The translations under genes and the position numbers were made by a program. Source: Squalus acanthias (lineage: Eukaryota). Taken from it: a DNA stretch of 64,000 nucleotides. Of the stretch, positions 3,330-58,403 are shown in pieces. Each line of letters begins with the position of its first letter. Within the stretch, counting starts at the first letter, position 1. The notes beneath the pieces were generated by a model. The model ran no database searches. It was not told where the DNA came from and was given only the letters and a program-made list of their open reading frames with translations. Where the stretch lies: assembly GCA_030390025.1 (NCBI GenBank), contig CM059432.1, positions 46,750,001 through 46,814,000 on the forward strand, given 5' to 3'.

Positions 3330-3772
3330 CAGAATGAAAGACAGCTGCCATGTGGGAGAGAAGAAAATAAGACACAGACAAAAAGTGTGGATAAAAAATA
3401 TATATATGATAGGGGCCGAGGTTATGATCTGAAATTGGCACATGGCAGCTGCCTTTCATTCTGCCAGTGCAATTTACACTTCATCTAGACCCATCCTTTG
3501 TTTCTTAACCTGTCCCATTACCATCTCCTTTTGCCTTGAATATCTCTTATTGTCTCTTAACCTCTCCTGCCTTCTATCCTATCACAGACCTTCCCTTTTG
3601 TTCTTTCATCCCCTCCCCCCTTTCCCAGCCCCTACACTTGCTTAAAAATCTGTTCCATTTCCTGCTTTTTTCCAGTTCTGACGAAAGGTCATCGACCTGA
3701 AACGTTAACTCTGTTTCTCTCTTCACAGATGCTGCCTGACCTGCTGAGTATCTCCAGCATTTTCTGTTTTTA
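3330..3772 (+). mobile_element. Penelope-like element 3'/pLTR fragment (family 1)
   Basis: Same sequence family as the non-coding part of the GIY-YIG-bearing copy at 21132-21814; contains a hammerhead motif. Confidence 0.7.
3674..3710 (+). ncRNA. Minimal type I hammerhead ribozyme motif
   Basis: AGTT-CTGACGA-A-AGGTC(atc)GACCT-GAAA-CGT-T-AACT: intact core, 5-bp stem II, palindromic ACGT stem III, 4-bp stem I. Confidence 0.75.
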
Positions 3773-11425: not shown

Positions 11426-12208
11426 TATATGTTTCAATAAGATCACCTCTCATTCTTCTAAACTCCAATAAGTATAGGCCCAACCTGCTCAACTTTTCTT
11501 CATAAGACAACCCCCTTCATCTCAGGAATTAACCTAGTGAACCTTCTCTGAACTGCCTCCAATGCAAGTATATCCCTCCTTAAATAAGGAGACCAAAACT
11601 GCACGCAGTACTCCAGGTGTGGTCTCACCAGTGCCCTGTACAGTTGTAGCAAGACTTCCCTACTTTTATACTCCATCCCCCTTGCAATAAAGGCCAACAT
11701 TCCATTGCCTTCCTAATTACTTGCTCTACCTGCATGCTAACATTTTGTGCTTCATGTATGAGGACCCCCAGATCCCTCTGTACCGAAGCATTATGTAGTC
11801 TCTCTCCATTTAAATAATAATTTGTTTTTTTATTTTACCTACCAAAGTGGATAACCTCACATTTTCCCACATTATACTCCATCTGCCAAATTTTTGCCCA
11901 CTCACTTAACCTATCTATATCCCTTTGCAGACTCTTTGGCCACGATTTTCCAAGTGGAGGCGGGTTGGAATCGGCTTTGATGTTCAGCGGGTTCCGTTCC
12001 CACTGCCGGTTTCAGCTGCCCTGAGATTACGATTTTTGCTTAAGTGGGCTGATTAAGCCCGTCGTGTGTGCTACCCGGCCCAATCAGTGGGTTCGGGTCT
12101 GCTGCTCGCCTCTGCTGACGTCTTTCAGCCAGCTGTATTTAAGGGGCCCATGCAGCCTTGTTTTTGATCAATCCTATTCTGCTGCTTCTCGGTGTGGCAC
12201 TTCTGAAA

Positions 12209-14123
12209 ATGACTGCTTCAAGACCCAAGACATCTCCCAGATTTGATGATGACTCCCTCCATGCTCTTGTGGAGGGAGTGAGAGGGCGCAAAGAGGTACT
12301 GTTCCCCTCAAATGGACAGAGGAAGCCTCCTCAGCAAACCAAACCAGCCTGGCTGCAAATTGCTGAGGAGGTGAGCGCCAGGTCTTTGTGTGGTCGCACC
12401 TGTGTTCAGTGCAGGAAAAGTTTCAATGATCTGCTACGCACAGCAAAAGTGAGTATAACATCACACTTACCTTCAATCTGCTCCCCATCTCCTCTCATCA
12501 CCAGCACTCTGCATTGTCAACCTACTCCTGCATATCCCACTTTACCCTTACATCCCTTGCACCCTTAACCATCCCTCTCTCTCTATGTACAGAATCACTT
12601 CACTATTATACTATGCACCCCTCACACTCGCTATCACTGTTATGCAATGACAACAACTAACAATGCACAGGGAGGGCCCTTGGTACTGGCACCTCACTCC
12701 ATCTTTGTCTCCCTCTAAGCATCTATGCTATGGATTCTCTACACTCACTCCAACATTCTCACGCAAACTCCACTTGTGTCCCTCATTGCAGGAAAAGAGA
12801 GTCCACAATAAGAGGGAGAGGGGCAGGACAGGAGGAGGGCCACCTTCGATTGCCCACTTGACCACCGCTGAGGAGGCTGCTCTCGACATCGTCGGAGGTG
12901 CTGAGGATCTGGAAGTGGGGGACGGTCAGACAGGCGCAGTAGAGCAAGCTGGTGACAGAATAGATTTGCAACCCTCTCATTTAGATTGCATGAGTGACTG
13001 ATATGGCATCTGATGTTCATACAGATTGAGTTCTGATCATCTGCACAATTTCAAGTGCCTGCTACGTTCATATCACATGTCTAACTCATGCCTTTACTCT
13101 CCCACAGGACTATCGAGAGCCCCCCTCCCCACTGTCCAGGAGGAAGAGCCGGAAGACTCCTCAGAGGAAGCTGCAACCTCTGAGGGCGCAGTGTCAACAG
13201 AATTGAGCGCACCCAGCACCAGCGCAGAGATGCACACCTCGATGGGTCATTCGCGAGATAGATTAGTGTTGTCACCTGGTGTATCACAGCTCACAAATGA
13301 GCAGCAGCAGATGGTGGAGAGAGGGACAGCAGTGGAGAGTCCTCGTCAGAGGCCGCAGGGCGCTCCTAGCTCTGCTCAGCTACATGTGGACCCTGTACCA
13401 CTGGGGCCATTGAGAAAGAGAGTGGTGCTGGAACTTCAGCAACAAGTGCAGGAGTCTCTGACAGGTTTTGCATCCATGGTAACTGTGAGTGTGCAGAGAA
13501 TGGAGGAATCCATCTCAAACATAAGCAATGCCATGCTGGAGGCAAGGGCGCATGAACGTGCCACCATGGAGAGGGTGGCAACCTCCTTGGAGGACATAAG
13601 TCGGCAGACTCAACAGAGCATGGTAACTCTTCTAAATAGATGGTTTGCTATGGAGGATAGTTGGGCAGCTATTGAGGAGAGACACCAGAGGTACAGGGAC
13701 GTCCCCATTATGAGGACTGTCAGTACAGAGATGGGTCCTCATGGCCCCACTGATGTACAGCAAGGTGCTCTCCAGCTACTTGCTAGCAGTGAAGTGCGGG
13801 CGACCCATGAGAGGGATGTTGGTGGTTGACAACAAGGAAGTGTGGGCTCCTCTCCAAGCGCTCACACTCCCATGCCACTGCGGAGCCCTTGGTCAGAGCC
13901 CCAGAGTCCTCACCCAAATGAGATGGCCGTCTCAGCCCCTGCACAGCCGCAGGAGGAGCAGACTGTTGCCGAGCCATCCCAGGCTCCCAAACCCAGAGGT
14001 CGCCCACCAAAGGTGTCGAAGCAGGAGTAGCATGAAAGTGAGCAAGGTGCCTCCACATCTGCTGAAGCCACAGGGGAAGCACCACGTAGAAGCACGCGTA
14101 AGAGAAAGTTAACACACAAATAG
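12209..14123 (+). pseudogene. Harbinger Myb/SANT-like gene, 3 exons (12209-12448, 12792-12951, 13108-14123)
   Basis: PRFDDDSLHALVEGV..W..IA..V....RT..QCRKSFNDL, then RTGGGPP. Frame intact but nonsense codons at 13827 (TGA; CGA in the 45-47 kb copy) and 14028 (TAG; CAG in that copy). Confidence 0.8.
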
Positions 14124-17692: not shown

Positions 17693-17843
17693 CTCGTAAA
17701 TCATCGGCAGAAATAACTCCAAGTTCAACTTTTGTTGCTGTGATTATTGTGCAGGTGAAGAGTTTTTCAAGAAGAATGCTGATCTCTCCAAAGGATTCCT
17801 TCTCTTGGAGCTTTCCCATGATGATATGCTTCACCTCACTTAC
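17693..17843 (-). CDS. CNBD1: CNBD1-like coding exon D (cNMP-binding domain)
   Basis: Acceptor tttttttcctAG, donor GTAATG, 151 nt, phase 0-1. Peptide VSEVKHIIMGKLQEKESFGEISILLEKLFTCTIITATKVELGVISADDLR with the ESFGE motif. Confidence 0.88.
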
Positions 17844-24214: not shown

Positions 24215-25750
24215 GAAAATTAATGGAATCCCTACTAAACGAGAGAATAGAAGAACATCTAGAAACAAAAAGTATAATAATGAATAGTCAGCATGGATTT
24301 CAAAAGGGAAAATCTTGCTTGACCAACCTTATTGAACTTTTTGAAGAGGTAACAGAGAGTATAAAATGGTAATGCAGTAGATGTAATTTATCTAGATTTT
24401 TAAAAGGCCTTAAATAAGGTACCCCATAATAGACTAATGAATAAGGTCAGAGAATGCGGAGTCAGGGGATAAGTAGCACAATGGATTGCTGGCTGGCTTC
24501 AAGACAGAATGCGGAGATGCCGGTGTTGGACTGGGGTGGACAAAATTGAGAGGTCGCATAACACCAGGTTATAGTCCAACAGTTTTATTTGAAATCACAA
24601 GCTTTCTCCGAAAGCTTGTGATTTCAAATAAAACTGTTGGACTATAACCTGGTGTTGTGCGACCTCTCAATTTTGTTCAAGACAGAAAGCAGAGAATGGG
24701 AGTAAAGGGTAGCTATTCACAGTGGCAGAAGGTGGGTAGTGGTGTTCCACAAGGATCAGTGCTGGGAACACTGCTGTTCACAATTTACATTAACGATTTA
24801 GACTTTGGAATCAAAAACACAATTTCTAAATTAGCAGATGATACCAAATTGGGGGGGATAGTCAATACTGAGGAGGACTGCAACAAGTTACAGGAGGACA
24901 TTAATAAACTTGAAGAATGGGCAAATAATTGGCAAATGAAGTTCAGCACAGATAAATGTGAGGTATTACATTTTGATAGGAAGAATAGGGAGATCACTTA
25001 TCACTTGGAGGGTGTGAGTCTAGGTGGGGTAGAGGGTCAAAGGGATCTCGGAGTACAAATACACAAATCACTAAAAGTTGTGACGCAGGTTAACAAGGCC
25101 ATTAAAAATGCAAACCAAGCACGAGGGTTTATTTCTAGAGGGATAGAATTGAAAAGTAGGGAAGTTATGCCAAACCTGTATCAAACCTTGGTTAGACCAC
25201 TTGGAGTACTGCGTGCAGTTCTGGTTGCCATATTATAAAAAGGATATAGAGGCACTGGAGAGGGTGCAGAGAAGATTTACAAGGATGATACCAGAAATGC
25301 GAGGGTATACATATCAGGAAAGGATGAACAGGCTGGGTCTCTTTTCTCTTGAAAAAAGAAGGCTGAGGGGTGACCTAATAGAGGTCTATAAAATTATGAA
25401 AGGTTTTCATAATGTGGATACAGAGAGAATATTTCCACTTGTGGGGAAGAGCATAACTAGAGGCCATCAATATAAGATAGTCACCAAGAAATCCAATAGG
25501 GAATTCAGAAGAAACTTCTTTACCCAAAGAGTGGTGAGAATGTGGAACTCGCTACTACAGGGGGTGGTTGAAGCGAATAATATAGATTCATTTAAGGGGA
25601 GGCTGGACAAACATATGAGGGAGAAGGAAATAGAGGGTTATGCTGATAGATTTAGATGAGGAAAGACGGGAGGAAGCTCAAGTGGAGCATAAACGGTGGC
25701 ATGGACTGGTTGGGCCGAATGGCCTGTTTCTGTGCCGTATATCCTATGTA
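24215..25750 (+). mobile_element. CR1 LINE 3' portion, apparently inserted in an older degraded LINE (~23997-26130)
   Basis: RT and C-terminal ORFs 24657-25659. Flanks carry degraded LINE-like peptides (QGIRNDQRAWADKIADKAE; RWREYF). Confidence 0.8.
24510..24675. mobile_element. Palindromic Penelope-derived insertion (family 2, copy 1)
   Basis: ~65-bp inverted arms; 12-bp TSD TTCAAGACAGAA (24498-24509 / 24676-24687). Confidence 0.8.
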
Positions 25751-27192
25751 ACGATGCACTCCAAAATAACAGAACCAGAGATTAACTTGCAGCATTTAAA
25801 AGACAGAGACATCTAGGTCCTCATATTTCTGTCCCTATCAAAGCCTCAGAGGGATCCTCACTGGCAGATCAGAACGCACAGATGGAGCGATGGAGAGAAT
25901 ACTTCAGCGGCCAAGTTAATTATCCACCTACCCTCCTGAAGTACTGTCCCAGACAACTTCCATGACAGTACTTGACCCAAGCATTTCAGTGCCTGTTCCA
26001 TCACAAGAGGAAGTCGCTAAAGCAATTTTAAGTAGGAAGCAGGGCAAGGCTCCAGGCTGCTGTAATATATCAGTGGAATGTCTTACAGCTTATGGGGATG
26101 CAGTGATTGACTACTTATTCCATCCTCTTTACTCATAGAAACATAGAACAGTACAGCACAGTACAGGCCCTTCGGCCCTCGATGTTGTGCCGAGCATTGT
26201 CCGAGACCAAGATCAAGCTATCACACTCCCTATCACTCTGGTGTGCTCCATGTGCTTATCCAATAACCGCTTGAAAGTTCCTAAAGTGTCCGACTCCACT
26301 ATCACAGCAGGCAGTCCATTCCACACCCCAACCACTCTCTGAGTAAAGAATCTACCTCGGACATCCCTTCTATATCTCCCCCCATGCACCTTATAGTTAT
26401 GCCCCCTTGTAACAGCTGCCTCTACCCGAGGAAATAGTCTCTGAACATCCACTCTATCTATCCCCCTCATCATCTTATAAACCTCTATTAAGTCGCCTCT
26501 CATCCTCCTCCGCTCTAAAGAGAAAAGCCCTAGCTCCCTCAATCTTTCCTCATAAGACCTCCCCCCCAAACCAGGCAGCATCCTGGTAAATCTCCTTTGC
26601 ACTCTTTCCAATGCTTCCACGTCCTTCCTATAGTGAGGTGACCAGAACTGCACACAATATTCCAAATGTGGTCTCACCAAGGTCCTGTACAGTTGCAGCA
26701 TAACCTCACGGTTCTTAAACTCAAACCCTCTGTTAATAAACGCCAACACACCATAGGCCTTCTTTACTGCTCTATCCACTTGAGTGGCAACCTTCAGAGA
26801 TCTGTGGATATGAACCCCCAGATCCCTCTGCTCCTCCACGTTCCTCAGAACCCTGCCGTTGACCCTGTAATCCTTATTCAAATTTGCCCTACCAAAATGA
26901 ATCACCTCGCACTTATCAGGGTTAAATTCCATCTGCCATTTTTCGGCCCAGCTCTGCATCCTATCAATGTCTCTTTGCAGCCTACAACAGCCCTCCACCT
27001 CATCCACTGCTCCACCAATCTTGGTGTCATCAGCAAATTTACTGATCCACCCTTCAGTCCCCTCCTCCAAGTCATTGATAAAAATCACAAACAGCAGAGG
27101 ACCCAGCACCGACCCCTGTGGCACACCGCTGGTAACTGGTCTCCAGTCCGAAAATGTTCCATCCACCACCACCCTCTGCCTTCTATGAGATA

Positions 27193-27391
27193 AAATTGAG
27201 AGGTCGCACAACACCAGGTTATAGTCCAACAGTTTTATTTGAAATCACAAGCTTTCGGAGCTATCGATTTGCTCCTTCCTCAGGTGAAGTAAATTGACTT
27301 CACCTGAGGAAGGAGCAAATCGATAGCTCCGAAAGCTTGTGATTTCAAATAAAACTGTTGGACTATAACCTGGTGTTGTGCGACCTCTCAA
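27193..27391. mobile_element. Palindromic Penelope-derived insertion (family 2, copy 2)
   Basis: ~96-bp perfect inverted arms around a 6-nt spacer; 12-bp TSD TTCTATGAGATA (27181-27192 / 27392-27403). Confidence 0.85.
27300..27342 (+). ncRNA. Minimal hammerhead ribozyme motif (mirror copy on minus strand at 27245-27287)
   Basis: TCAC-CTGAGGA-A-GGAGC(aaatcgata)GCTCC-GAAA-GCT-T-GTGA: core CUGANGA/GAAA, stems I and II, palindromic AGCT stem III. Confidence 0.7.
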
Positions 27392-28775
27392 TTCTATGAG
27401 ATAGCCAGTTACTTATCCAATCGGCCAAATTTCCCTCTATCCCACAACTCCTTACTTTCTTCATGAGCCGACCATGGGGAACCTTATCAAACGCCTTACT
27501 AAAATCCATGTATACGACATCAACTGCTCTACCTTCATCTACACACTTAGTTACCTCCTCAAAGAATTCAATCAAATTTGTTAGGCAAGACTTACCCTTC
27601 ACGAATCCGTGTTGACTTTCCCTGATTAAGTTGCCCCTTTCCAAATGGTCATAAATCCTATCCCTCAGGACCTTTTCCATTATCTTACCAACCACCGAAG
27701 TAAGACTAACTGGCCTATAATTACCAGGGTCATTCCTATTTCCTTTCTTGAAGAGAGGAACAACATTCGCCACTCTCCAGTCCTCTGGCACCATTCCCGT
27801 GGACAGTGAGGACCCAAAGATCAAAGCCAGAGGCTCTGCAATCTCCTCCCTTGCCTCCCAAAGAATCCTAGGATATATTCCATCTGGCCCAGGGGACTTA
27901 TCGACCCTCAGGTTCTTCAAAATTGCTAAAACACCTTCCCTCAGAACATCTACCACCTCCAGCCTATCCACCTTTATCACACTCTCATCCTCAAGAACAT
28001 GGCCCCTCTCCTCGGTGAACACTGACGAAAAGTATTCATTCATCACCTCTCCTATCTCTTCTGACTCCATGCACAAGTTCCCACTACTGTCCTTGACCGG
28101 CCCTACCCTCACCCTGGTCATTCTTTTATTTCTCACATAAGAGTAAAAGGCCTTGGGGTTTTTCTTGATCCGACCCGCCAAGGACTTCTCATGCCCCCTC
28201 CTAGCTCTCCTAAGCTCTTTTTTTAGCTCATTCCTTGCTACCTTGTACCCCTCAATCGACCCAACTGAACCTTGTTTTCTCATCCTTACATACGCTTCCT
28301 TTTTCCTCTTGACTAGACATTCAACCTCATGTATGGGAATTCAAAATTATTCCTAAGGATTGATATCATGGGGTTATCTTGCCAACCTGTAAGGGCAAAG
28401 GAAGCAGAGCTGAGTGCGGTAACTATCAGGGCATCACCCTTCTATCACAGGAAATGCGTTTGTTCATATGCTTCTCAGCAGATTGGGACCTTTATATATA
28501 AGAAAACAAGAGCAAACTGAATTGACCCCTGGCAGATCGACAGTCGAGTAGATAATGACACTCAACCTGCTACTTTGACTAGCGTAATTCAGGTGGAATA
28601 AAATCAGAAATCCATTTGTATCCAGCTTTCTGGCAAATCATTTGTAAACTACTGGCATTTGCACGCATATGGTTGCTTCAATCACTTTTATATTTGGAAA
28701 TACTGAAAGAAAAAAATGTAGATTTTTGTCATGCAACCACAAAATGAGTTGCATGCAAATACAACAGTTAAGTGT

Positions 28776-31228: not shown

Positions 31229-32962
31229 GGCCGCGAATTTAATGGAAGAGGCGGGATAGCTGGTTTCCGGCTTCCGGTTCCGCTCCCAGCTGCAGCCGCT
31301 CTGTAAACGAGATTTTCCTTTGATTGGCCTTGTTAATCCCGCCCTGCGGGTTTTCCGACCAATTAACAAGAAGCGGGTCTGATGACGTCATTTGATGACG
31401 CGTCATCAGCTAGTTTCCTTAAAGGGACCACGTCCACATGGAGTTTGACAGTTGTTCTGTCAGTGTTCTACAGCATTGAAGTGCTGCAAACACTGACAAG
31501 CACTGCACAAAGGTGGACGCTTGCACCCAGGCTCTCCAATGACTCCCTCCATGTGCTTATGGAGGAAGTCACAGCACGCAGGGAGGTTCTCTTTCCTTCC
31601 AAGGGCGGAAGAGACCTCCCCAGGACAACAACGCAGCCTGGTTGCACATTGCACAGGAGGGCAAAAGCAGGGATGTCGTCAGGGGTCCCTGGCAGCAGTG
31701 GCGCCAACCTTTCAATGATCTCAGTGGATCACAAAATGTTACTGCAAAGCCACACTCAAACTCACCCTGCTGTGCCACTCAACACATCCCCATCACTCTG
31801 CCTTCCATACCCTTCTCCTGCACATCCTTACTCACACCAACTTACCTTGCACCTCCACCTAACCCTCTCTATCTACTTTATCACTTCCCCATCTCACTAG
31901 CCACCCCTCACACTCACCCTCATCCTACTGCAAGCATACCAACTAACAACACACAAGGGTAGGCATTTGAGAGGTTTAGCCAATGTCCATGTGAAGTTTC
32001 TGGTAATGTGTTGTCATACAGTGTAATCTATTTTTCCAAAAGTGCCCCTTATTGGACAGATCTGAGCGCACCTTGAGAAGTGTCTTACTGAGTTCCAGTC
32101 ATTGTTCAGACATAACTATCCCCCACCCCCGCTATAGTGATGTGTGTGCATGGAATGGCTTGGCCATTAAAGGGATGCTTCACGGTGCTGGTGTAGGATG
32201 GTGTCAACCTGGCGCATCATGTAACAGTCAGGGTTTACAGCATCAAGCGAAGAAAATCTGGCCATGGTGATGCCATCGCTGGCCTCCCGGGCAGCAATGT
32301 TGTCAGGAGCGGATGCTCTGAGTCCAGTGCAGCATCAGGTGATGGCGGAGAAGGTTGGTGATGTTGTTGGTGATGTTGGTGTGCCTGGTGATGTTGGTGT
32401 TGGGGCTGATCATGGAATGATTTGGAGGACCAAGGTCTGATTGTTTCAATGGCTCCGATGTTGCTGCAATAGATGGCAGCTGCAGGTGAGATGACAGAAG
32501 CGATCTGTCAATGGTGAGAGAGGTTCTCCCAATGAGGTGGCACTGGACATACAGTTGGATCTAAAAACTTGTAAGCTAAAGAAATCTCTATATGTATTAA
32601 AAATGCAGTAACCAACATTTTCTGCGCTCTGAAACTCACCATCTGCAACATGGCATCCTTTACACCACTTCTGCAGCTGTCAGCTTTTCAGAAACATCAG
32701 AGCAGACTCAAAACAAGCCAGGTTGAGCTGGCATGTTCCCCGAACAGCGGGTAACCCATGGGGAGAACGTAAAATTAGAAGGAAGCCTCAAAATAGTCTT
32801 AAATTGGCTCTTAACAAGCCATTTAACAAGCTGAACTGTATCCCCCAGTTCTCCGCTGACAGACCCGACACCTAGGAGACTCGCGTGGACTGTCAATCTT
32901 TGCTATTTTGACAGCGGACCCGCCTCCAAACCCGCCCTTTGAGTGCTATTAAATTTGCGGCA
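31229..32962 (+). mobile_element. Non-autonomous Harbinger with decayed Myb exon (family E)
   Basis: TIR GGCCGCGAATTTAAT / ATTAAATTTGCGGCA, TSD GGG; APRLSNDSLHVLMEEV..RREVLFP Myb remnant. Confidence 0.8.
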
Positions 32963-43231: not shown

Positions 43232-46200
43232 GGCCACAATTTCCCCTACCTCGGTGGGTCCGGTGTGGCCGGGGTCAGTGGCGGGATGCGACCCCACTGC
43301 TGGCTCCAGCCCACTGTCCAAAGTGATTTTACGCTGATTGGGCTTGTTAAGCCCGCCCGGCCAATTGAAGGAAGCGGGACTGATGATGTCACTTGATGAC
43401 GCGTCATCAGCTAGTTTCCTTAAAGGGACCATGTGCAAATTTATTTTGACAGTTGTGCTGTCAATGTTCTACAGCATTGAGGTGCTGCAAACACTGACAA
43501 GCACTGCACAGAGGTGCAGGGCTGCACCCAGGCTCTCCCATGACTCCCTCCACAGCACGCATGGAGGTTCTCTTCCCTTCCAATGGGCCATGATGCGGAG
43601 ATGCCGGTGTTGGACTGGGGTGGACAAAAATGAGAAGTCGCACAACACCAGGTTATAGTCCAACAGTTTTATTTGAAATCATGAGCTTTCGGAGCGCCAT
43701 GATTTCAAATAAAACTGTTGGACTATAACCTGGTGTTGTGCGACTTCTCATTTTCTTCCAATGGGCGGAAGAGACCTCCCCAGGAGATCAACGCAGCCTG
43801 GTTGCACATTGCACAGGAGGACACAAGAGGAATGTCATTTGGTGGACCAGGATGCAGTGGAGCAAACCTTTCAATTATCTCAGTAGATCACAAAACATTA
43901 CTGCTAAGCCACACTCAACCTCATCCTGCTGTGCCACTCATCACATCCACATCACTCTGCCTTCCCTACCCTACTCCTGCACATCCTTACTCACACCAAC
44001 TTACCTTGTACCTCCACCCATCCCTCTCTATCTACATTATCACTTCCCATCTCACTAGCTACCCCTCACACTCACCCTCATCCTAGTCCAATCATACCAA
44101 GTAACAACACACAGGATGGGCACTTGGGTATTTTAGCCAATGTTCATGTGAAGTTTCTGTTAATGTGCTGTCAAACATTGAAATCTTTATTTTCAGCATT
44201 TTGCATTCTTGGACAGATTTGTGCGAACCTTTGGAAGTGGCTTAGTGAGTTGCAGTGAATGGTGAGACATAATGGTACCCCCCACAATGGCGATGAGTGT
44301 GGAAGGAATGGCTTTGGCACTGTAGAGATGCTTTATGTGTTGGTGTGGGGTAGTGCCAACCTGGCGCATCATGTGGCAGCCAGGGTGTACAGCATCAAGT
44401 GAAGTAAATCTGGCTATCATGAGGCCATCCCTGGCCTCCCAGCCAGCAATGTGATCAGGTGCTGATGCCCTCTGCCCTGATTGCAGAGAAGGTTGGTGTT
44501 GTTGTTGGTGCTGCTGGTGTGCCTGGTGCTGCTGATGTTGGGCTGATCTTGGTGAGATTCTGAGGACCAAGGTGAGATAGTTTCAAGGGCACCAATGCTG
44601 ATGTCATAGATGGCAGGTGAAGTTGAGATGACAGAAGCGATCTGTCAATGGTGAGAGAGGTTGTTCCCATGAGGTGACACTGGATAAAGTTTGCTCCAAA
44701 CACTTGCAAACTGCATAAAGTTCAATCTGTCTTCCAAATGCAGTAAGCAACTACTTGGAGACAAGGGCTATCCCCTGAAGACTTGGCTAATGACACCGAT
44801 GAGGAGGCCATCAAACGAAGCTGAAGAGCGCTACAATGTGAGCCACATTTTCACCAGAAGCATCATAGACCAAACTATCGGCTTGCTCAAAATGCGATTC
44901 AGATGCCTCGACAGAACTGGTGGAGCCCTACAGTACTCACCAGCCAGGGTCTCCAGAATCATCGTGGTCTGTTGTGCACTGCACAACATCGCACAGCAGC
45001 ATGGCTAACCGCTGCCTGAGGAACAAGTGACTCAGTGCACAACCTCCTCCTCCTCAGAGGAGGAGGAGGAGGAGGAGGAGGAGGAGGAAGACCTTGCGGA
45101 GGAGGATGTGTCAGTTCCACCTGCACACGAGCACATTGCTGGCCGTGAGGCAAGGGATGCACTAATCCATGTCAGATTTGTGTAACTTTACGAAGCCAAC
45201 ACATGTGGCTGCCACATGGAAATGAGTGTCTGGCCGACTTTTTTAACACACCATACAGCATCTGTACAATAAACTGTGGGTTCCTATCACTCTCACCACC
45301 ATCATTACAGATGAAAGGCGCCCTCACCCCTCACTGTGACACTTCCATTTCTGGGCACACATAGGCCAACTATTTGAATCTTTGCCAACGCGTTTCTTTA
45401 TTACAATTGAAATAACGAGAACATTCTTCACTTTGTATTAGATCAAAACACCCAAGTGACTACCCTTGTGACTATTTGTGTGTTAACTTTCTCTTACGCG
45501 TGCTTCTACATGGTGCTTCCCCTGTGGCTTCAGCAGATGTTGAGGCACCTTGCTCACTTTCATGCTGCGCCTGCTTCGACACCTTTGGTGGGCGTCCTCT
45601 GGGTTTGGGAGCCTGGGAGGGCTCGGCAACAGATAGCTCCTCCTGCGGCTGTGCAGGAGCTGAGACAGCCATCTCAGTTGGGTGAGGAATGTGGGGCTCT
45701 GACCAAGGGCTCCGCAGTGGCATGGGAGTGTGAGCGCTTGGAGAGGAGCCCACACTTCCTTGTTGTCGACCACCAACATCCCTCTCATGGGTTGCCCGCA
45801 CTTCACTGCTAGCAAGTAGCTGGAGAGCACCTTGCTGCACATCAGTGGGGCCATGAGGACCCGTCTCTGTACTGACAGTCCTCATAACGGGGATGTCCAT
45901 GTATCTCTGGTTCCTCTCCTCAATAAATGGCAATCTATCCTCCATAGCAGACCATCTATTTACAAGAGTCACCATGTTAATTTGCATCTGGCGACTTATT
46001 TCCTCCATGGAGGTTGCCATTCTTTCCATGGCGGCACCTACATTCGCCATTGAGTGCACCACGGCATTGCGCATGTTTGAGATGGATTCCTCCATTCTCT
46101 GCACACTCGCAGTTACAGTGGTTGCAAACTATGTCAGAGACTCCTGCACTTGTTCCTGAAGTTCTCTTTCTGGATGGCCCCAGAGGCACAGGGTCCACAT

Positions 46201-47635
46201 GCAGCTGAGCAGAGCTAGGAGTGCCCTGTGGCCTCTGACGAGGACTCTCCACTGCTGTCCCTGTCTCCACCATCTGCTGATGCTCACTTGTGAGCTGTGA
46301 TACACCAGGTGACAATACTAATCTATCTCGCGAATGACCCACCGAGGTGCGCGTATCTGCGCTCGTGCTGGGTGCACTCAATTCTGCTGAGACTACACCC
46401 TCAGAGGTTGCAGCTTCCTCTGAGGAGTCTTCTGGCTCTTCCTCCTGGGCAGTGGGGAGGGGGGCTCTGTGGGGGAGTAAAGGCATGAGTTAGACATGTG
46501 ATATTAACGTAGCAGACACATCCAATTATGCAGATGATCAGAACTCAATCTGTATGAACATCATATGCCATATCAGTCACTCATGCAATCTAAATAAGAG
46601 GGTTGCAAATCTATTCTGTCACCAGCTTGCTCTACTGCGCCCATCTCTCCGTCCCCCACTTCCAGCTCCTCAGCACCTCTGATGATGTCGAGAGCAGCCT
46701 CCTCAGCGGTGGTTAAATGCGCCATGGAAGGTGGCCCTCCTCCTGTCCTCCCCCTCTCCCTCTTATTATGGGCTCTCTTTTCCTGCAACGAGGGACACAA
46801 GTGGAGTTTGAGTGAGAATGTTGGAGTGAGTGTAGAGAATTCATAGCATAGATGCTTAGAGGGAGACAAAGATGGAGTGAGGTGCCAATACCAAGGTCCC
46901 TCCCTGTGAGTTGTTAGTTGTTGTCATTGCATAACAGTGATAGCGAGTGTGAGGGGTGCATAGTAGAATGGTGAAGTGATTCTGTACATAGAGAGAGAGG
47001 GATGGTTAAGGGTGCAAGGGATGTAAGAGTAAATTGGGATGTGCAGGAGTAGGTTGACAATGCATGTATTGGTGTTGGGAGGAGATGGGGAGCAGATTGA
47101 AGGTAAGTGTGATGTTATACTCACTTTTGCTGAGCGTCGCAGATCATTAAATCTTTTGCGGTACTGAACCCAGGTGCGTGAGTACAAAGACCTGGCGCTC
47201 ACCTCCTCAGCAATTTGCAGCCAGGCTGCCTTGGTTTGCTGAGGAGGCTTCCTCCGTCCATTTGAGGGATACAGAACCTCTTTGCACCCTCTCACTCCCT
47301 CCACAACAGCATGGAGGGAGTCATCATCAAATCTTGTAGAGGCCTTTGATCGTGAAGCTGTCATCTCGCTATCTGCCACAATGAGAAGCATCAGAAAATG
47401 AATGAAAATCCACAAGGCTGCATGGGCCCCTTAAATGCAGCTGGATAGAAGATGTCAGCAGAGGCGAGCAGCAGACCTGAACCCACTGATTGGGCCGGGA
47501 AGCGCGCACGACGGGCTTAATAAGCCTAGTTAAGGGAAAATCATTATCTCAGTGCGACTGAAACCGGCAGCGGGACCGGAACCCGCCGAACAGCCAACCC
47601 GACTCCAACCCGCTGCCGATGGTAAAATCGCGGCC
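43232..47635. mobile_element. Chimeric Harbinger remnant: family E left part joined to an inverted family 2 copy
   Basis: 43232-~44690 matches 31229-32550. ~44750-47635 is the reverse complement of 11938-14765 (transposase C-terminus plus Myb pseudogene 45472-47365 on minus). Confidence 0.8.
43589..43754. mobile_element. Palindromic Penelope-derived insertion (family 2, copy 3)
   Basis: ~55-bp inverted arms; 12-bp TSD CTTCCAATGGGC (43577-43588 / 43755-43766). Confidence 0.8.
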
Positions 47636-54480: not shown

Positions 54481-54606
54481 CTTCAATACAAAAGAAGAGC
54501 ATTTTTGTGACTGCTTGTTAGCTCTCTTGTTCAGATGGTTAAAACAGTGAAAAAAGAGGAATTCAGGATTCCAACAATTGTCAGTAGAGTTAAACAAAGT
54601 ACTCAC

Positions 54607-54744
54607 CTTTTTTACATGTTCATATTGTCCGGTGGAAATTTTGAGAATTTCACAGTTAGCTTCTGCGAACACCGATAGAACCCTGCTTTTTAATTTCTGA
54701 TTTGGAATTGGTACCAAGCCACCAAAGCTGTCTCCAAAAGTCAA
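54607..54744 (-). CDS. CNBD1: CNBD1-like coding exon A (end of a cNMP-binding domain)
   Basis: Acceptor tttttgtctccAG, donor GTGAGT, 138 nt, phase 0-0. Peptide LTFGDSFGGLVPIPNQKLKSRVLSVFAEANCEILKISTGQYEHVKK has cNMP-domain-like GDSFG and CEILKI motifs. Confidence 0.85.
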
Positions 54745-56580
54745 CTGGAGACAAAAAATAAGAATGACCTTCTGAAGAGTATTCATTCAAACCTGAATAG
54801 AGGCATTTAGTCTTCACTATGTAACTATTTCATTTTAACAGTCATTCATGTTTACATATTCGTGTGCAAATAAAAAAAATGCTAGTTTATCCATCTTGTT
54901 ATTCCTGAGGAGACAACACATAATTTAAAGATCGTGTCCCCGAAATCCCTAGGGCTGAAGTTGGCGCAAGTCTCATTTAAGCCTGGGGTAGTCGTGGATA
55001 ATGTGCCATATCTTAACTGTCAGTTTTCCGCCACTTTTGGACTAGATCTTTCAAATTTCAGTTAGGTGGACGGTTATTAAATTCACGTGCCCCTGCCCCT
55101 GCTCTCCCATTGTCAGGGGTTATGTCAGGGGGAGTTCCTGGGTTTCCACAGAAATTCCTCCCTTCATGCCCTTGAAGGATCTCAATGGAACTCATGCCAG
55201 TTGAGACCTGATGTGAGATCCTTTGTGGCCTTTTGAAAGGCGCAAAACCTTTAACAGAATAAGATAACTGATTCCAGAGAGGATCGATTCCCTTCTCGAG
55301 TTGGAGTGGCTCCAGTGGGAACAAAAGGGTTTAATTTTTTTTTCTTCAGCCCATTTGGGCCTTGTGGACTTTGCTTGACCTGAGAATAGCAGATTGGCTC
55401 AGGCAGGAGCGGCTGCTGCTAATGTACCCTTGCAGGTGCCGACAAGCCACCCCAGCTATGCAAATTATCCCATCCCCAGGATTTGGGATGGGGTCTCTAG
55501 TTTTGGGCGAGGGCAGGGGTGGGGGGTGGATTCCACTCCATCAGACTTACTCCAGTAGAGTAGGGCCTCAGAATTTCCAGGCCAATAATGTTAATAGTTA
55601 CAGAAAATTCAGCAAGACTCACTGACCAAGAATTACAAAAAGTGTAACATCTGCAGAATCGCTAATTCCCCAAACATGCATTTTTATTTCAAGTTGATTT
55701 TCTTCCCTAATTAAGAGAGTTGAGTGACACAGTTCATAGTTCTCTACCTGTTCTATCCTTGGGCCAGTCACAAAGGTTGTTATAAGAATAATGACTTTTG
55801 TTGAAAAAGTGCACCGGGAATTTTCACAAGGGCTCATCTGATCTCCTGCCGTAACATTAGCAGAACATTGGCAGAAATCCTGGAGAAACAGTGTAAATAG
55901 ACGTTCATGCCATTTCTCCGGGGTTTCTGCTGATCCTCCGACGAAGTTACGATGGCAGAGCAGGGAAATTCTACTCCATGTTATTCAAATACGAGTGGTA
56001 AATTCCCAAAGGTGTCATTCATTAGCTTCTCCTAAGCTATGCAGATCAGGAAGATCCCAGACCTTATTTCTACTGTATGTTGCATTAGCTGATCTCAGCT
56101 GGGATAGGTGTAGGGGCAATACAATTGGCCTCAGCGTTTCTAGGTAGGGACAGGTGTTACAGGTTTAGGGTCTGACTTTGATATTTTCTCGGTACAGTAG
56201 TGCTGGTGTGGTCTAAACATTTTGGGGTAGAAATTAGGTCGCGCCCCATTTGGGGCGCAAATATCGTCCGGACGCAAATATTAGCGCCTGCCGCTAATTA
56301 TCGGCACTGACAGGAAACTTCACTTTTACCGCCCCGGGAGGTGAGTGGAGCGCTAAATTAGGCGCTGCACACCTCTCTTAAGGCGCAAAGGCCAAGGAGT
56401 GAGGCGCTAACTCAGCGCATGAGCGCAGCGCAGCTGCTGCCAGTTAGCGAGGGAACACAGACACAATGGCGCCGGACACTTCTTAAAGCGGGGGGGGCCA
56501 CTTGCTCCCCAGCCACACCCTGCTCATTGCAGCCTTGAATCTCAGCCTGGAGAGACCTGTAATCCATTTTGCTGCCAAGC

Positions 56581-58403
56581 ATGGAGAGGGTGAGAGAACG
56601 CGCTCATCGCTTCACCGAGCGGGCCTTGGATGCTCTGGTTGGCGCAGTGGAGCGCAGACGATGCATGCTGTTCCCGGAGAGTGGCAGGAGGCCTTTGCCA
56701 CGCGAGTTCAGAAGAGTGTGGAGGGAGGTGGCTCAGAGCGTCTCCTCCAGGAGCATGGTGCCCAGGACCCATGTTCAATGCCACAAAAAGTTCAACGACC
56801 TCACTCGGGTCGTCAGGGTGAGTGGCTTTTTCTCAATACCTCTCCATCCCTCCATCTCAACCTCACTCTATGGCCAGAGGGTCTTAAAACCCCAATGCAC
56901 AACACTCATCCAACACCTATGGCCCTTTCATCAAACACACACACACATTCCACACTTTGCATACAGTAAGGGCTATTCACCTATGGGAGGCACATCAGGT
57001 AAGACCATGGCTGTATATTGTAAGGGCTATTCACCTATGGGAGGCACATCAGGCAAGACCTTGGCTGTATATTTACTCAGATGCTGTCCTTTTTCTTGCA
57101 GGCTAAGCTGGCTCATAATCGGAGACAGCAGCAACGGACGGGTGGAGGGCGGCTTCAGCTGCAACCCCTCAGCGATCTGGAGGAGCGCGTCCACAGGATT
57201 GTGGCAAGCCGGGTGATCGGTCCCGTCGCCACTGGAGACGCCGACCCCGTTGTGGACAGCAATGGTAAGGTCATCACCTTTTTGTCCTCTGTCCTTCCAC
57301 TTGTCCCTCACAATACCAGCCTTTGACACTTTCAATCCAACTTGCTAACTCGCTGCACTTATTCCTCCCTTACTGCCACCCTGTCCTCACGCTAAAGCCA
57401 CTCTTGTACCTCCCTGCTTTCAGATGGTGATTCACCAGCTGAGGAGACGGGCCCTGAAGCTGCCACTGGGAGTGATGCTGCAGCTGAGGAGGAAGAGGAA
57501 GCCGGAGCATCAGTGCCACCCTCTCCCGAGGAAGCCCATGCCCACACTGGGAACACGCCTTCCCCGGAGGGGAGCAGGGGGGAAGGGGCTGATGATGGTG
57601 AAGCTCCAGGACCCAGCGGGCTGCAGCAACGCCATGGGGGGGGGAGGGAAGAACGGGGGCCTTCTCCCCAGAGGGAGAGTATGCCAGACACTCCTACTGC
57701 AATGGACGCAGAGGAGGAGCGGCTGATTGCAGAAATGAACAGCCAGGCGGTGGGCATGCACACTGAGCTCATGGGTGCAGTGGGAAGGGTGCCCGAATGC
57801 ATTGAGTCACTGGCAAGGAGTGTGGAGCACTTCGCTGTAGCACAGGCGGATGCCACACTAAAGCTTAGTGCTGCAATTCAGTCACTGGCTGCCAGGAACC
57901 CATCTGAGACTGCTCTCATGCAGACTCAGATTGAGGCCACGCGAGCACTGACTGCTGCCATCCTCGATGGTTCGTGCACATGTCCCCAGGGCTGTCACCG
58001 CGCCGCAGCAGGCCAGCAATCTGTTCTCCGGCAAATTGCTCCGGATGCTGAAGTGCTGCCCCGTGGGAGTGCCAGTGTGTCGGGCGAGCAGGGAGTTGCT
58101 GTCCTCTCTCACGATGACAGCATTCCTGCTGCCAACACTGTCACTTCTCCACTGCACTTGCCACCGCCTGTAGGACAGACTGCTGCCGCCCATGCAGAGT
58201 TGTTGCAGTCTGCAGCCGGGCCCTCCAGGCCCAGAAGTGGTCGAGGCCGTCCTTCAGGGGCATCTGCAGTGTCAGGGTCTGACGAGCAGCAGCCTTCCAC
58301 CAGCCTTGCTGCAGCCACTGAGGTCCCATTACGGAGGAGCAGTAGGGTTAGAAGGGGGGAAGTGCGCAAGGGAAGGAGATCACCCTCGAAGGGCAAAAAG
58401 TAG
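56581..58403 (+). CDS. Harbinger Myb/SANT-like DNA-binding protein, 3 exons (56581-56817, 57102-57264, 57424-58403), 459 aa
   Basis: MERVRERAHRFTERALDALV..W.EVA..V....RT.VQCHKKFNDL; canonical GT/AG introns (phases 0 and 1); 1380 nt with no internal stop; basic C-terminus. Confidence 0.88.
56966..57073 (+). repeat. 2 x 54-bp tandem duplication in Myb intron 1
   Basis: GTAAGGGCTATTCACCTATGGGAGGCACATCAGG at 56966 and 57020. Confidence 0.9.

What the first reader, a model, noticed from the sequence alone, without database searches (positions are those of the whole stretch)
27181..27403. Perfect ~200-bp palindromic insertion with a hammerhead motif on both strands
Seen: ~96-bp perfect arms, a 6-nt spacer and a 12-bp TSD. 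Each arm holds TCAC-CTGAGGA-A-GGAGC..GCTCC-GAAAGCTT-GTGA followed by AATAAA. It interrupts an otherwise open CR1 ORF2, so it is recent. Transcription in either direction, including the CNBD1 intron, would give a long hairpin RNA. Known: inverted pLTRs occur in Penelope insertions. Inference: a non-coding fold-back product of an active Penelope family.
Basis: partly seen in the sequence, partly recalled or inferred. Interest (0 to 1): 0.7.

Follow-up and report, generated by a model that had tools for sequence, protein, structure and literature searches.

The report
Mirror-image Penelope stub, symmetric landing site
This 200-base palindrome is one of thousands of head-to-head stubs left by a very active Penelope-like jumping gene of a known kind, and comparing the copies suggests each was likely built on landing, when both cut strands of a mirror-symmetric DNA site started their own copy of the element's RNA.

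Summary
In detail: 97-nt perfect arms, 6-nt centre, 12-nt TSD, and a minimal type I hammerhead motif on each strand. The arm is the pLTR of a young 3.1-kb Penelope-like element (Neptune-type linker, intact 892-aa RT + GIY-YIG ORFs) with over 13,000 arm copies in this genome. The centre of this copy is unique, so it is not a self-copying unit. Simple fold-back fits poorly: in 31 of 71 twin insertions the tail-less arm reaches further 5' than the tailed arm. Across copies, 66 of 73 twins carry the ~35-nt tail on exactly one arm and none on both. The 5' ends of the two arms correlate (rho 0.80) and pile up 32 nt below a TATA box. Insertion sites share a symmetric TG-N16-CA motif centred on the TSD (40 of 63; held-out 19 of 37; controls about 1). 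This CR1 site was hit at least 203 times. Best reading: twin target-primed reverse transcription at a two-fold cut (inferred). This copy is the rare tail-less-on-both-sides form. The layout is published; I did not find this mechanism in the papers searched. The scan has already reported the same on other DNA, in this and other genomes.

The parts
27181..27192 (+). Left copy of the 12-nt target-site duplication
27193..27295 (-). Left arm: element positions q-4 to q98 (q1 = 27290); five of the six 'spacer' bases belong to this arm and match the element upstream of q1; no tail
27296..27296 (+). One untemplated G at the head-to-head joint
27297..27393 (+). Right arm: element positions q1 to q95-97; no tail
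27300..27342 (+). Minimal type I hammerhead motif (helix I 4 bp, CUGAGGA, extra A, helix II 5 bp, GAAA, GC, UU); predicted cut between 27338 and 27339
   Evidence: activity untested
27245..27287 (-). Same hammerhead motif on the left arm
27348..27353 (+). AATAAA (mirror copy 27234-27239 on minus); use as a poly(A) signal untested
27392..27403 (+). Right copy of the TSD
27174..27180 (+). Left half of the symmetric target site (TG at 27177-27178)
27404..27408 (+). Right half of the symmetric target site (CA at 27406-27407); TG-N16-CA in the empty site
26213..28340 (-). Host CR1-type LINE (name recalled; RT domain by Pfam), 5'-truncated, young; this position is a family-wide hotspot
24498..24687 (.). 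Sister twin insertion with other centre (q34/q30), tail on the left arm, 12-nt TSD, TG-N16-CA site
43577..43766 (.). Sister twin insertion (q29/q43), tail on the left arm, 12-nt TSD, no TG-N16-CA

Best explanation
The palindrome is a 5'-truncated, head-to-head twin insertion of a young Penelope-like retroelement, likely made in one event in which the element's enzyme cut a mirror-symmetric site with a 12-nt stagger and both freed 3' ends primed reverse transcription of the RNA's leader. Shown: the arm is the element's pLTR; the layout TSD - inverted arm - direct arm - TSD; the TG-N16-CA site; one-tail asymmetry; non-nested, correlated, same-variant arms. Inferred: (1) a two-fold (dimer-like) cut leaving 12-nt 3' overhangs; (2) two primers normally start at two different sites of the RNA, about q97 and q135, which leaves the tail on one arm; here both used the q97 site; (3) both cDNAs ran off at or near the RNA 5' end, a predicted transcription start at q1, 32 nt below a TATA box; (4) the two cDNA ends were joined by end-joining with one added base and filled in. 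The hammerheads are likely passengers here: in a read-through RNA from either strand the antisense arm is made first and the 97-bp hairpin (-185 kcal/mol) would outcompete the ribozyme fold (-10.5).
For: [quoted passage not shown] 6342 hammerhead and 13,337 tail matches, 396 ORF starts. Centre unique, 1 match; 326 loci share this general centre with many different fillers. 73 twins: 66 tail/short, 0 tail/tail, 1 short/short (this one), 6 with a clipped end; TSD 11-15 nt in 63. Tail-less arm reaches further 5' in 31 of 71 (26 by over 10 nt), tailed arm in 19, equal in 21; 5' ends rho 0.80, n 59, median gap 21 nt versus 205 shuffled; 289 shared versus 76 one-arm variants in 72 loci. TG-N16-CA on the TSD in 40 of 63, N17 in 11, control mean 1.0; held-out 19 of 37, control 0.7. 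33 of 125 arm 5' ends fall in q-3..q11, 2.2 per nt against 0.07-0.36 beside it. In vitro, an anole PLE cuts and extends both strands, starts at two RNA sites that bound the tail, uses uncleaved RNA and is predicted to be a dimer (PMC11167929, parts 1-2 of 4 read).
Against: No RNA or biochemical data for this family. This copy breaks the one-tail rule, so both primers used the same start site, which one RNA explains less easily. 2 of 33 short twins have arms of different subfamilies, so two RNAs or later conversion occur. The cap test failed: the untemplated base before q1 was G in 6, C in 10, A in 1 of 17 cases (hand count), so the start-site reading rests on the pile-up and the TATA/Inr look only; the left arm here runs 5 nt past q1. 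Full-length copies mostly do not stop at q1 (about 4-5 of about 35 near it). About a third to a half of sites lack TG-N16-CA, and many sites are repeated positions in LINEs. The anole enzyme preferred ATT and showed no strand difference in start site. Loci came from chosen patterns, mostly contig C1.
Confidence: 0.72

Rival explanations
1. Fold-back or self-priming: one cDNA, or an antisense RNA, hairpins and copies itself; the endonuclease later trims one end, leaving the tail on one side.
For: Proposed for head-to-head Penelope structures in PMC3846280 (passages read). Explains identical arms and close 5' ends. Some joints are self-complementary.
Against: Needs the tailed arm to contain the other; violated in 31 of 71, by up to 1.3 kb. 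2 of 33 short twins have arms of different subfamilies. Does not explain a symmetric site.
Confidence: 0.1
2. Twin priming as above but on two separate RNAs held by an asymmetric dimer, usually from the same source copy.
Against: In my sample only 2 (at most 3) of 33 short and 0 of 25 long twins are clearly mixed, against 27 and 20 expected by random pairing; matched 5' ends far upstream (for example -707/-705, -967/-1007) fit one template better; long-arm differences were private, not subfamily alleles.
Confidence: 0.13
3. A MITE-like or retrozyme-like unit that copies itself as a palindrome, with working ribozymes on both strands.
For: Terminal inverted repeats, TSD, intact motif on both strands.
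Against: The centre occurs once in 3.7 Gb; sister copies differ in centre and length; no tandem units; Rfam matches are all below gathering score.
Confidence: 0.03
4. Assembly fold-back artefact.
For: Perfect arms; this locus could not be confirmed in reads because its flanks are a multi-copy LINE.
Against: Exact TSD, untemplated base at the joint, fit to the family target motif, and head-to-head joints with varied centres in independent runs' contigs.
Confidence: 0.02

Closest known systems
Endonuclease-positive Penelope-like elements with inverted 5'-truncated copy, one-sided 30-40-bp tail and TSD (PMC3846280, PMC8557442, PMC2377424; passages read)
   Same: Head-to-head inverted pLTRs, tail at one end, partial tandems, TSD, TATA/Inr-like motif in the pLTR.
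   Different: Here no ORF is left; TSD 12-14 nt rather than 8-10; this copy lacks the tail on both arms; those papers favour self-priming or leave the route open and, in the passages read, give no symmetric target motif.
Minimal hammerheads of metazoan PLEs (PMC4209133, part 1 of 4 read)
   Same: Type I, 4-bp helix I, unpaired base before helix II, palindromic rudiment of helix III; pairs on opposite strands 100-700 bp apart already noted there.
   Different: Helix II 5 bp; U at the cleavage position in this subfamily (C in a sister subfamily); activity not tested.
Poseidon of Anolis in vitro (PMC11167929, parts 1-2 of 4 read)
   Same: Both strands cut and extended, two internal start sites bounding the tail, uncleaved RNA used, dimer predicted.
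   Different: Other clade; ATT preference, no symmetric site or head-to-head product reported in the parts read.
L1 twin priming (recalled, not from a call)
   Same: Both target strands prime on the RNA, giving an inversion.
   Different: L1 gives non-overlapping inverted pieces; here both arms copy the same stretch, giving a palindrome.

Membership tests
EN+ Penelope-like element | Single ORF with RT and C-terminal GIY-YIG | tested here: met
   Parent copies: PF00078 E 2e-9; PF01541 E 7e-4, below cut-off; 892-aa ORFs. The stub itself has no ORF.
EN+ Penelope-like element | pLTRs from tandem or partial-tandem organisation | tested here: met
   3136-3142-nt period, arrays up to about 3.8 units in one TSD
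EN+ Penelope-like element | Hammerhead motif in the pLTR | tested here: met
   all 9 variants seen in 3 or more arms keep core and both helices; loop II varies; changes are one-sided wobbles
EN+ Penelope-like element | Inverted 5'-truncated copy and one-sided 30-40-bp tail | tested here: met
   66 of 73 twins; this copy has the inversion but no tail
EN+ Penelope-like element | RT groups with PLEs in a tree | not tested
   no reference set fetched
Neptune/Nematis clade | CX2-5CxxC motif between RT and EN | tested here: met
   C-X4-C-X2-C in the ORF; criterion from PMC8557442; Neptune and Nematis not told apart
MITE | Many copies of one fixed unit with the same interior | tested here: not met
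   centre unique; variable centres
Non-LTR retrozyme | Tandem direct repeats each with a type I hammerhead | tested here: not met
   two inverted arms only; definition from 10.64898/2026.07.22.740005 passages
Active hammerhead ribozyme | Self-cleavage | not testable with these tools
   only indirect: few arms start at the predicted cut (2-3 of the first 100 of 3239 matches; 9 of 125 in q38-49)
miRNA precursor | Rfam family score at gathering threshold | tested here: not met
   best 56.9 versus 142 bits

The most novel reading that the evidence does not exclude
This Neptune-type retroelement integrates like a dimeric site-preferring nuclease: it cuts TG-N16-CA with 12-nt 3' overhangs and runs two reverse transcriptases on one RNA from two start sites, which is the missing explanation for Penelope's inverted pLTRs and one-sided tail; short palindromes are run-off copies of the mRNA leader, while multi-unit arrays and copies that stop where the tail ends come from a ribozyme-made circular RNA.
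Probability: 0.3. Interest if true: 0.72.

Novelty: new member of a known kind. Interest (0 to 1): 0.4.

Why it matters
The object is ordinary, but the family is a large natural record of how Penelope-like elements integrate, which the papers read call unresolved. It gives a defined substrate (the symmetric site, 12-nt stagger, two start sites, an intact 892-aa protein) for a direct in vitro test of twin priming versus self-priming. Thousands of perfect intronic hairpins would also be a predicted source of double-stranded RNA for editing and silencing.

Tried and rejected
DNA-similarity search of the genome with the arm returned nothing because common words are skipped; patterns were used instead. 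Cap-G at q1: not supported. Pile-up at the ribozyme cut: weak at best. Two different source RNAs for the long twins L215 and L217: rejected, differences are private and many are at CpG. CR1 carrying the insert along: rejected, the 30 of 203 same-site loci examined differ in interior. No RNA holder listed; the one raw RNA run was another organism and laid 0 reads, no test. Locus-level presence or polymorphism could not be read from short contigs. Branch-point or 3' splice-site origin of the q1 pile-up: considered, poor fit (GAG acceptor, motif lost in L096). No tree, no structure or dimer prediction run. Literature searches: searches found no paper giving twin priming or a TG-N16-CA site for PLEs; the library lacks most subscription journals and Repbase, and no supplements were read.

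Full report
Observation. The insert is as described: 97-nt perfect arms (27194-27290, 27297-27393), a 6-nt centre and an exact 12-nt TSD; z -33 against shuffles. A hammerhead descriptor matches each arm and nothing in 20 shuffled windows. The host CR1 frame is open over 638 aa once the insert is removed but is 5'-truncated and 99% identical to its closest copies. A cNMP-binding exon lies 9.4 kb away on the minus strand; the gene name CNBD1 and the intron position were not established. Two more head-to-head copies with different centres lie in the same window.

What it is. Exact patterns give 6342 hammerhead, 13,337 tail and 396 ORF-start matches in the 3.7-Gb genome. [quoted passage not shown] L096 is the same layout at 6.2 kb, both arms sharing a frameshift. 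The window's centre occurs once, while 326 loci have both arms ending near q1 with varied fillers. So the palindrome is built anew at each insertion.

How the mirror arises. I called 73 twin insertions from 104 merged loci plus the window; the loci came from pattern lists, nearly all on contig C1, 20 regions picked mostly as visible pairs and 15 through the q1/q1 pattern, so frequencies are not genome-wide. 66 have one arm ending at q125-145 (tail) and one at q90-107; none has two tails; the window's copy is the only one with two short arms (L216 is another). Fold-back of one cDNA or one antisense RNA, the published proposal (PMC3846280), requires the tailed arm to contain the other. It does not in 31 of 71 cases, 26 by more than 10 nt. 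Yet the two 5' ends track each other (rho 0.80, n 59 after dropping the q1/q1-selected loci; median gap 21 versus 205 nt, 0 of 10,000 shuffles) and the arms share 289 non-majority variants against 76 one-arm ones (72 loci, one dropped for an internal deletion). In the helix II region 2 of 33 short twins differ at linked subfamily sites, 4 more at one base, against 27 expected at random; 0 of 25 long twins are clearly mixed. Two separately primed cDNAs from the same source, often probably the same RNA, fit this. The anole protein does cut and extend both strands and starts at two sites bounding the tail (PMC11167929).

The target. Empty sites show TG-N16-CA centred on the TSD in 40 of 63 twins with a TSD of 11 nt or more (37 distinct sites), N17 in 11, other spacings 0-4, shifted controls mean 1.0, maximum 4; the wider pattern is CTGGC-N12-GCCAG with an A+T-rich middle. 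In 52 held-out loci, 37 had a TSD of 10 or more and 19 of these had N16, 5 N17, control 0.7. The window's site fits. The same CR1 position with the same left junction occurs 203 times; the 30 examined differ in interior, 10 being resolved twins with the tail on the right and 10 single arms. A symmetric site with a 12-nt TSD suggests a two-fold cut (inference).

Why so short. Of 125 arms with a defined 5' end (of 127) in the first 22 Mb of C1, 33 end in q-3..q11, 2.2 per nt against 0.07-0.36 on either side and 0.75 at q38-49. q1 lies 32 nt below TATATAT in an initiator-like TTACTTC, as described for rotifer pLTRs. I read this as run-off at the mRNA start, but the cap-G test failed (G 6, C 10, A 1; hand count), most copies that include the ORF start pass q1 on the second round, and no RNA data were available. 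Starts exactly at the predicted ribozyme cut are at least ten times rarer than at q1, in line with uncleaved RNA as template. Several copies stop at q123-136, where the tail begins; with the identical arrays this hints at a circular or re-entered template, but long read-through RNA is not excluded.

The ribozyme motif. All 9 variants seen in 3 or more of 289 arms keep the core and both helices while loop II varies; the changes are wobbles, not compensatory, so this is weak support for selection. It matches the minimal PLE hammerheads of PMC4209133, where opposite-strand pairs were already noted. In the palindrome the long hairpin (-185) would outcompete the ribozyme fold (-10.5), and the TATA box is not included.

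Verdict. A new instance of a known structure. The population evidence for twin priming at a symmetric site was not found in the searches listed, and makes an open question testable. I formed this reading before looking at earlier notes; the scan has reported the same layout, twin priming and the TG-N16-CA motif on other DNA, which is not independent support. Interest 0.4.

Noticed in passing
window 24498-24687 and 43577-43766: Two more twin stubs of the same family; the second has C at the cleavage position and palindromic flanks (TCTCTTCC / GGAAGAGA) without TG-N16-CA.
   Followed up: yes
window 3674-3710 (+): One other match to the minimal hammerhead descriptor, unrelated in sequence to this family.
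   Followed up: no
L201/L202 (G000:C2:125.82 Mb), L184, L188, L189, L199, L216: Deletion derivatives that join q200-283 of the ORF start to the 3' UTR or tail; L201 is a 342-nt hammerhead-bearing unit repeated about 2.3 times, retrozyme-like.
   Followed up: partly
L191/L208 and L197: Almost exactly unit-length copies whose 5' end is q128, at the tail end, as expected if RT went once round a circle and met its own start.
   Followed up: partly
L209+L210, L211+L212, L213+L214: Arrays of 3-4 near-identical units with intact ORFs inside a single 12-nt TSD; L213 is a twin with arrays on both arms.
   Followed up: partly
loci with TSD TCTATTTATGAA / TTCATAAATAGA (for example L093, L102, L117, L055, L216, L225): A second recurrent hotspot in another LINE-like repeat, also TG-N16-CA.
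   Followed up: partly
joints (for example L062, C1:235751420): Fillers at the head-to-head joint are often short copies of nearby arm sequence, as in polymerase-theta end joining (resemblance recalled).
   Followed up: no
window 17700-17843 (-) and about 54601-54750 (-): Exon with a cyclic-nucleotide-binding match and a second candidate exon; gene not named.
   Followed up: partly
window about 12140-12560, 31370-31900, 46930-47430, 56560-57210: Several related degenerate ORFs resembling Myb/SANT-type proteins of Harbinger transposons (resemblance recalled, not tested).
   Followed up: no
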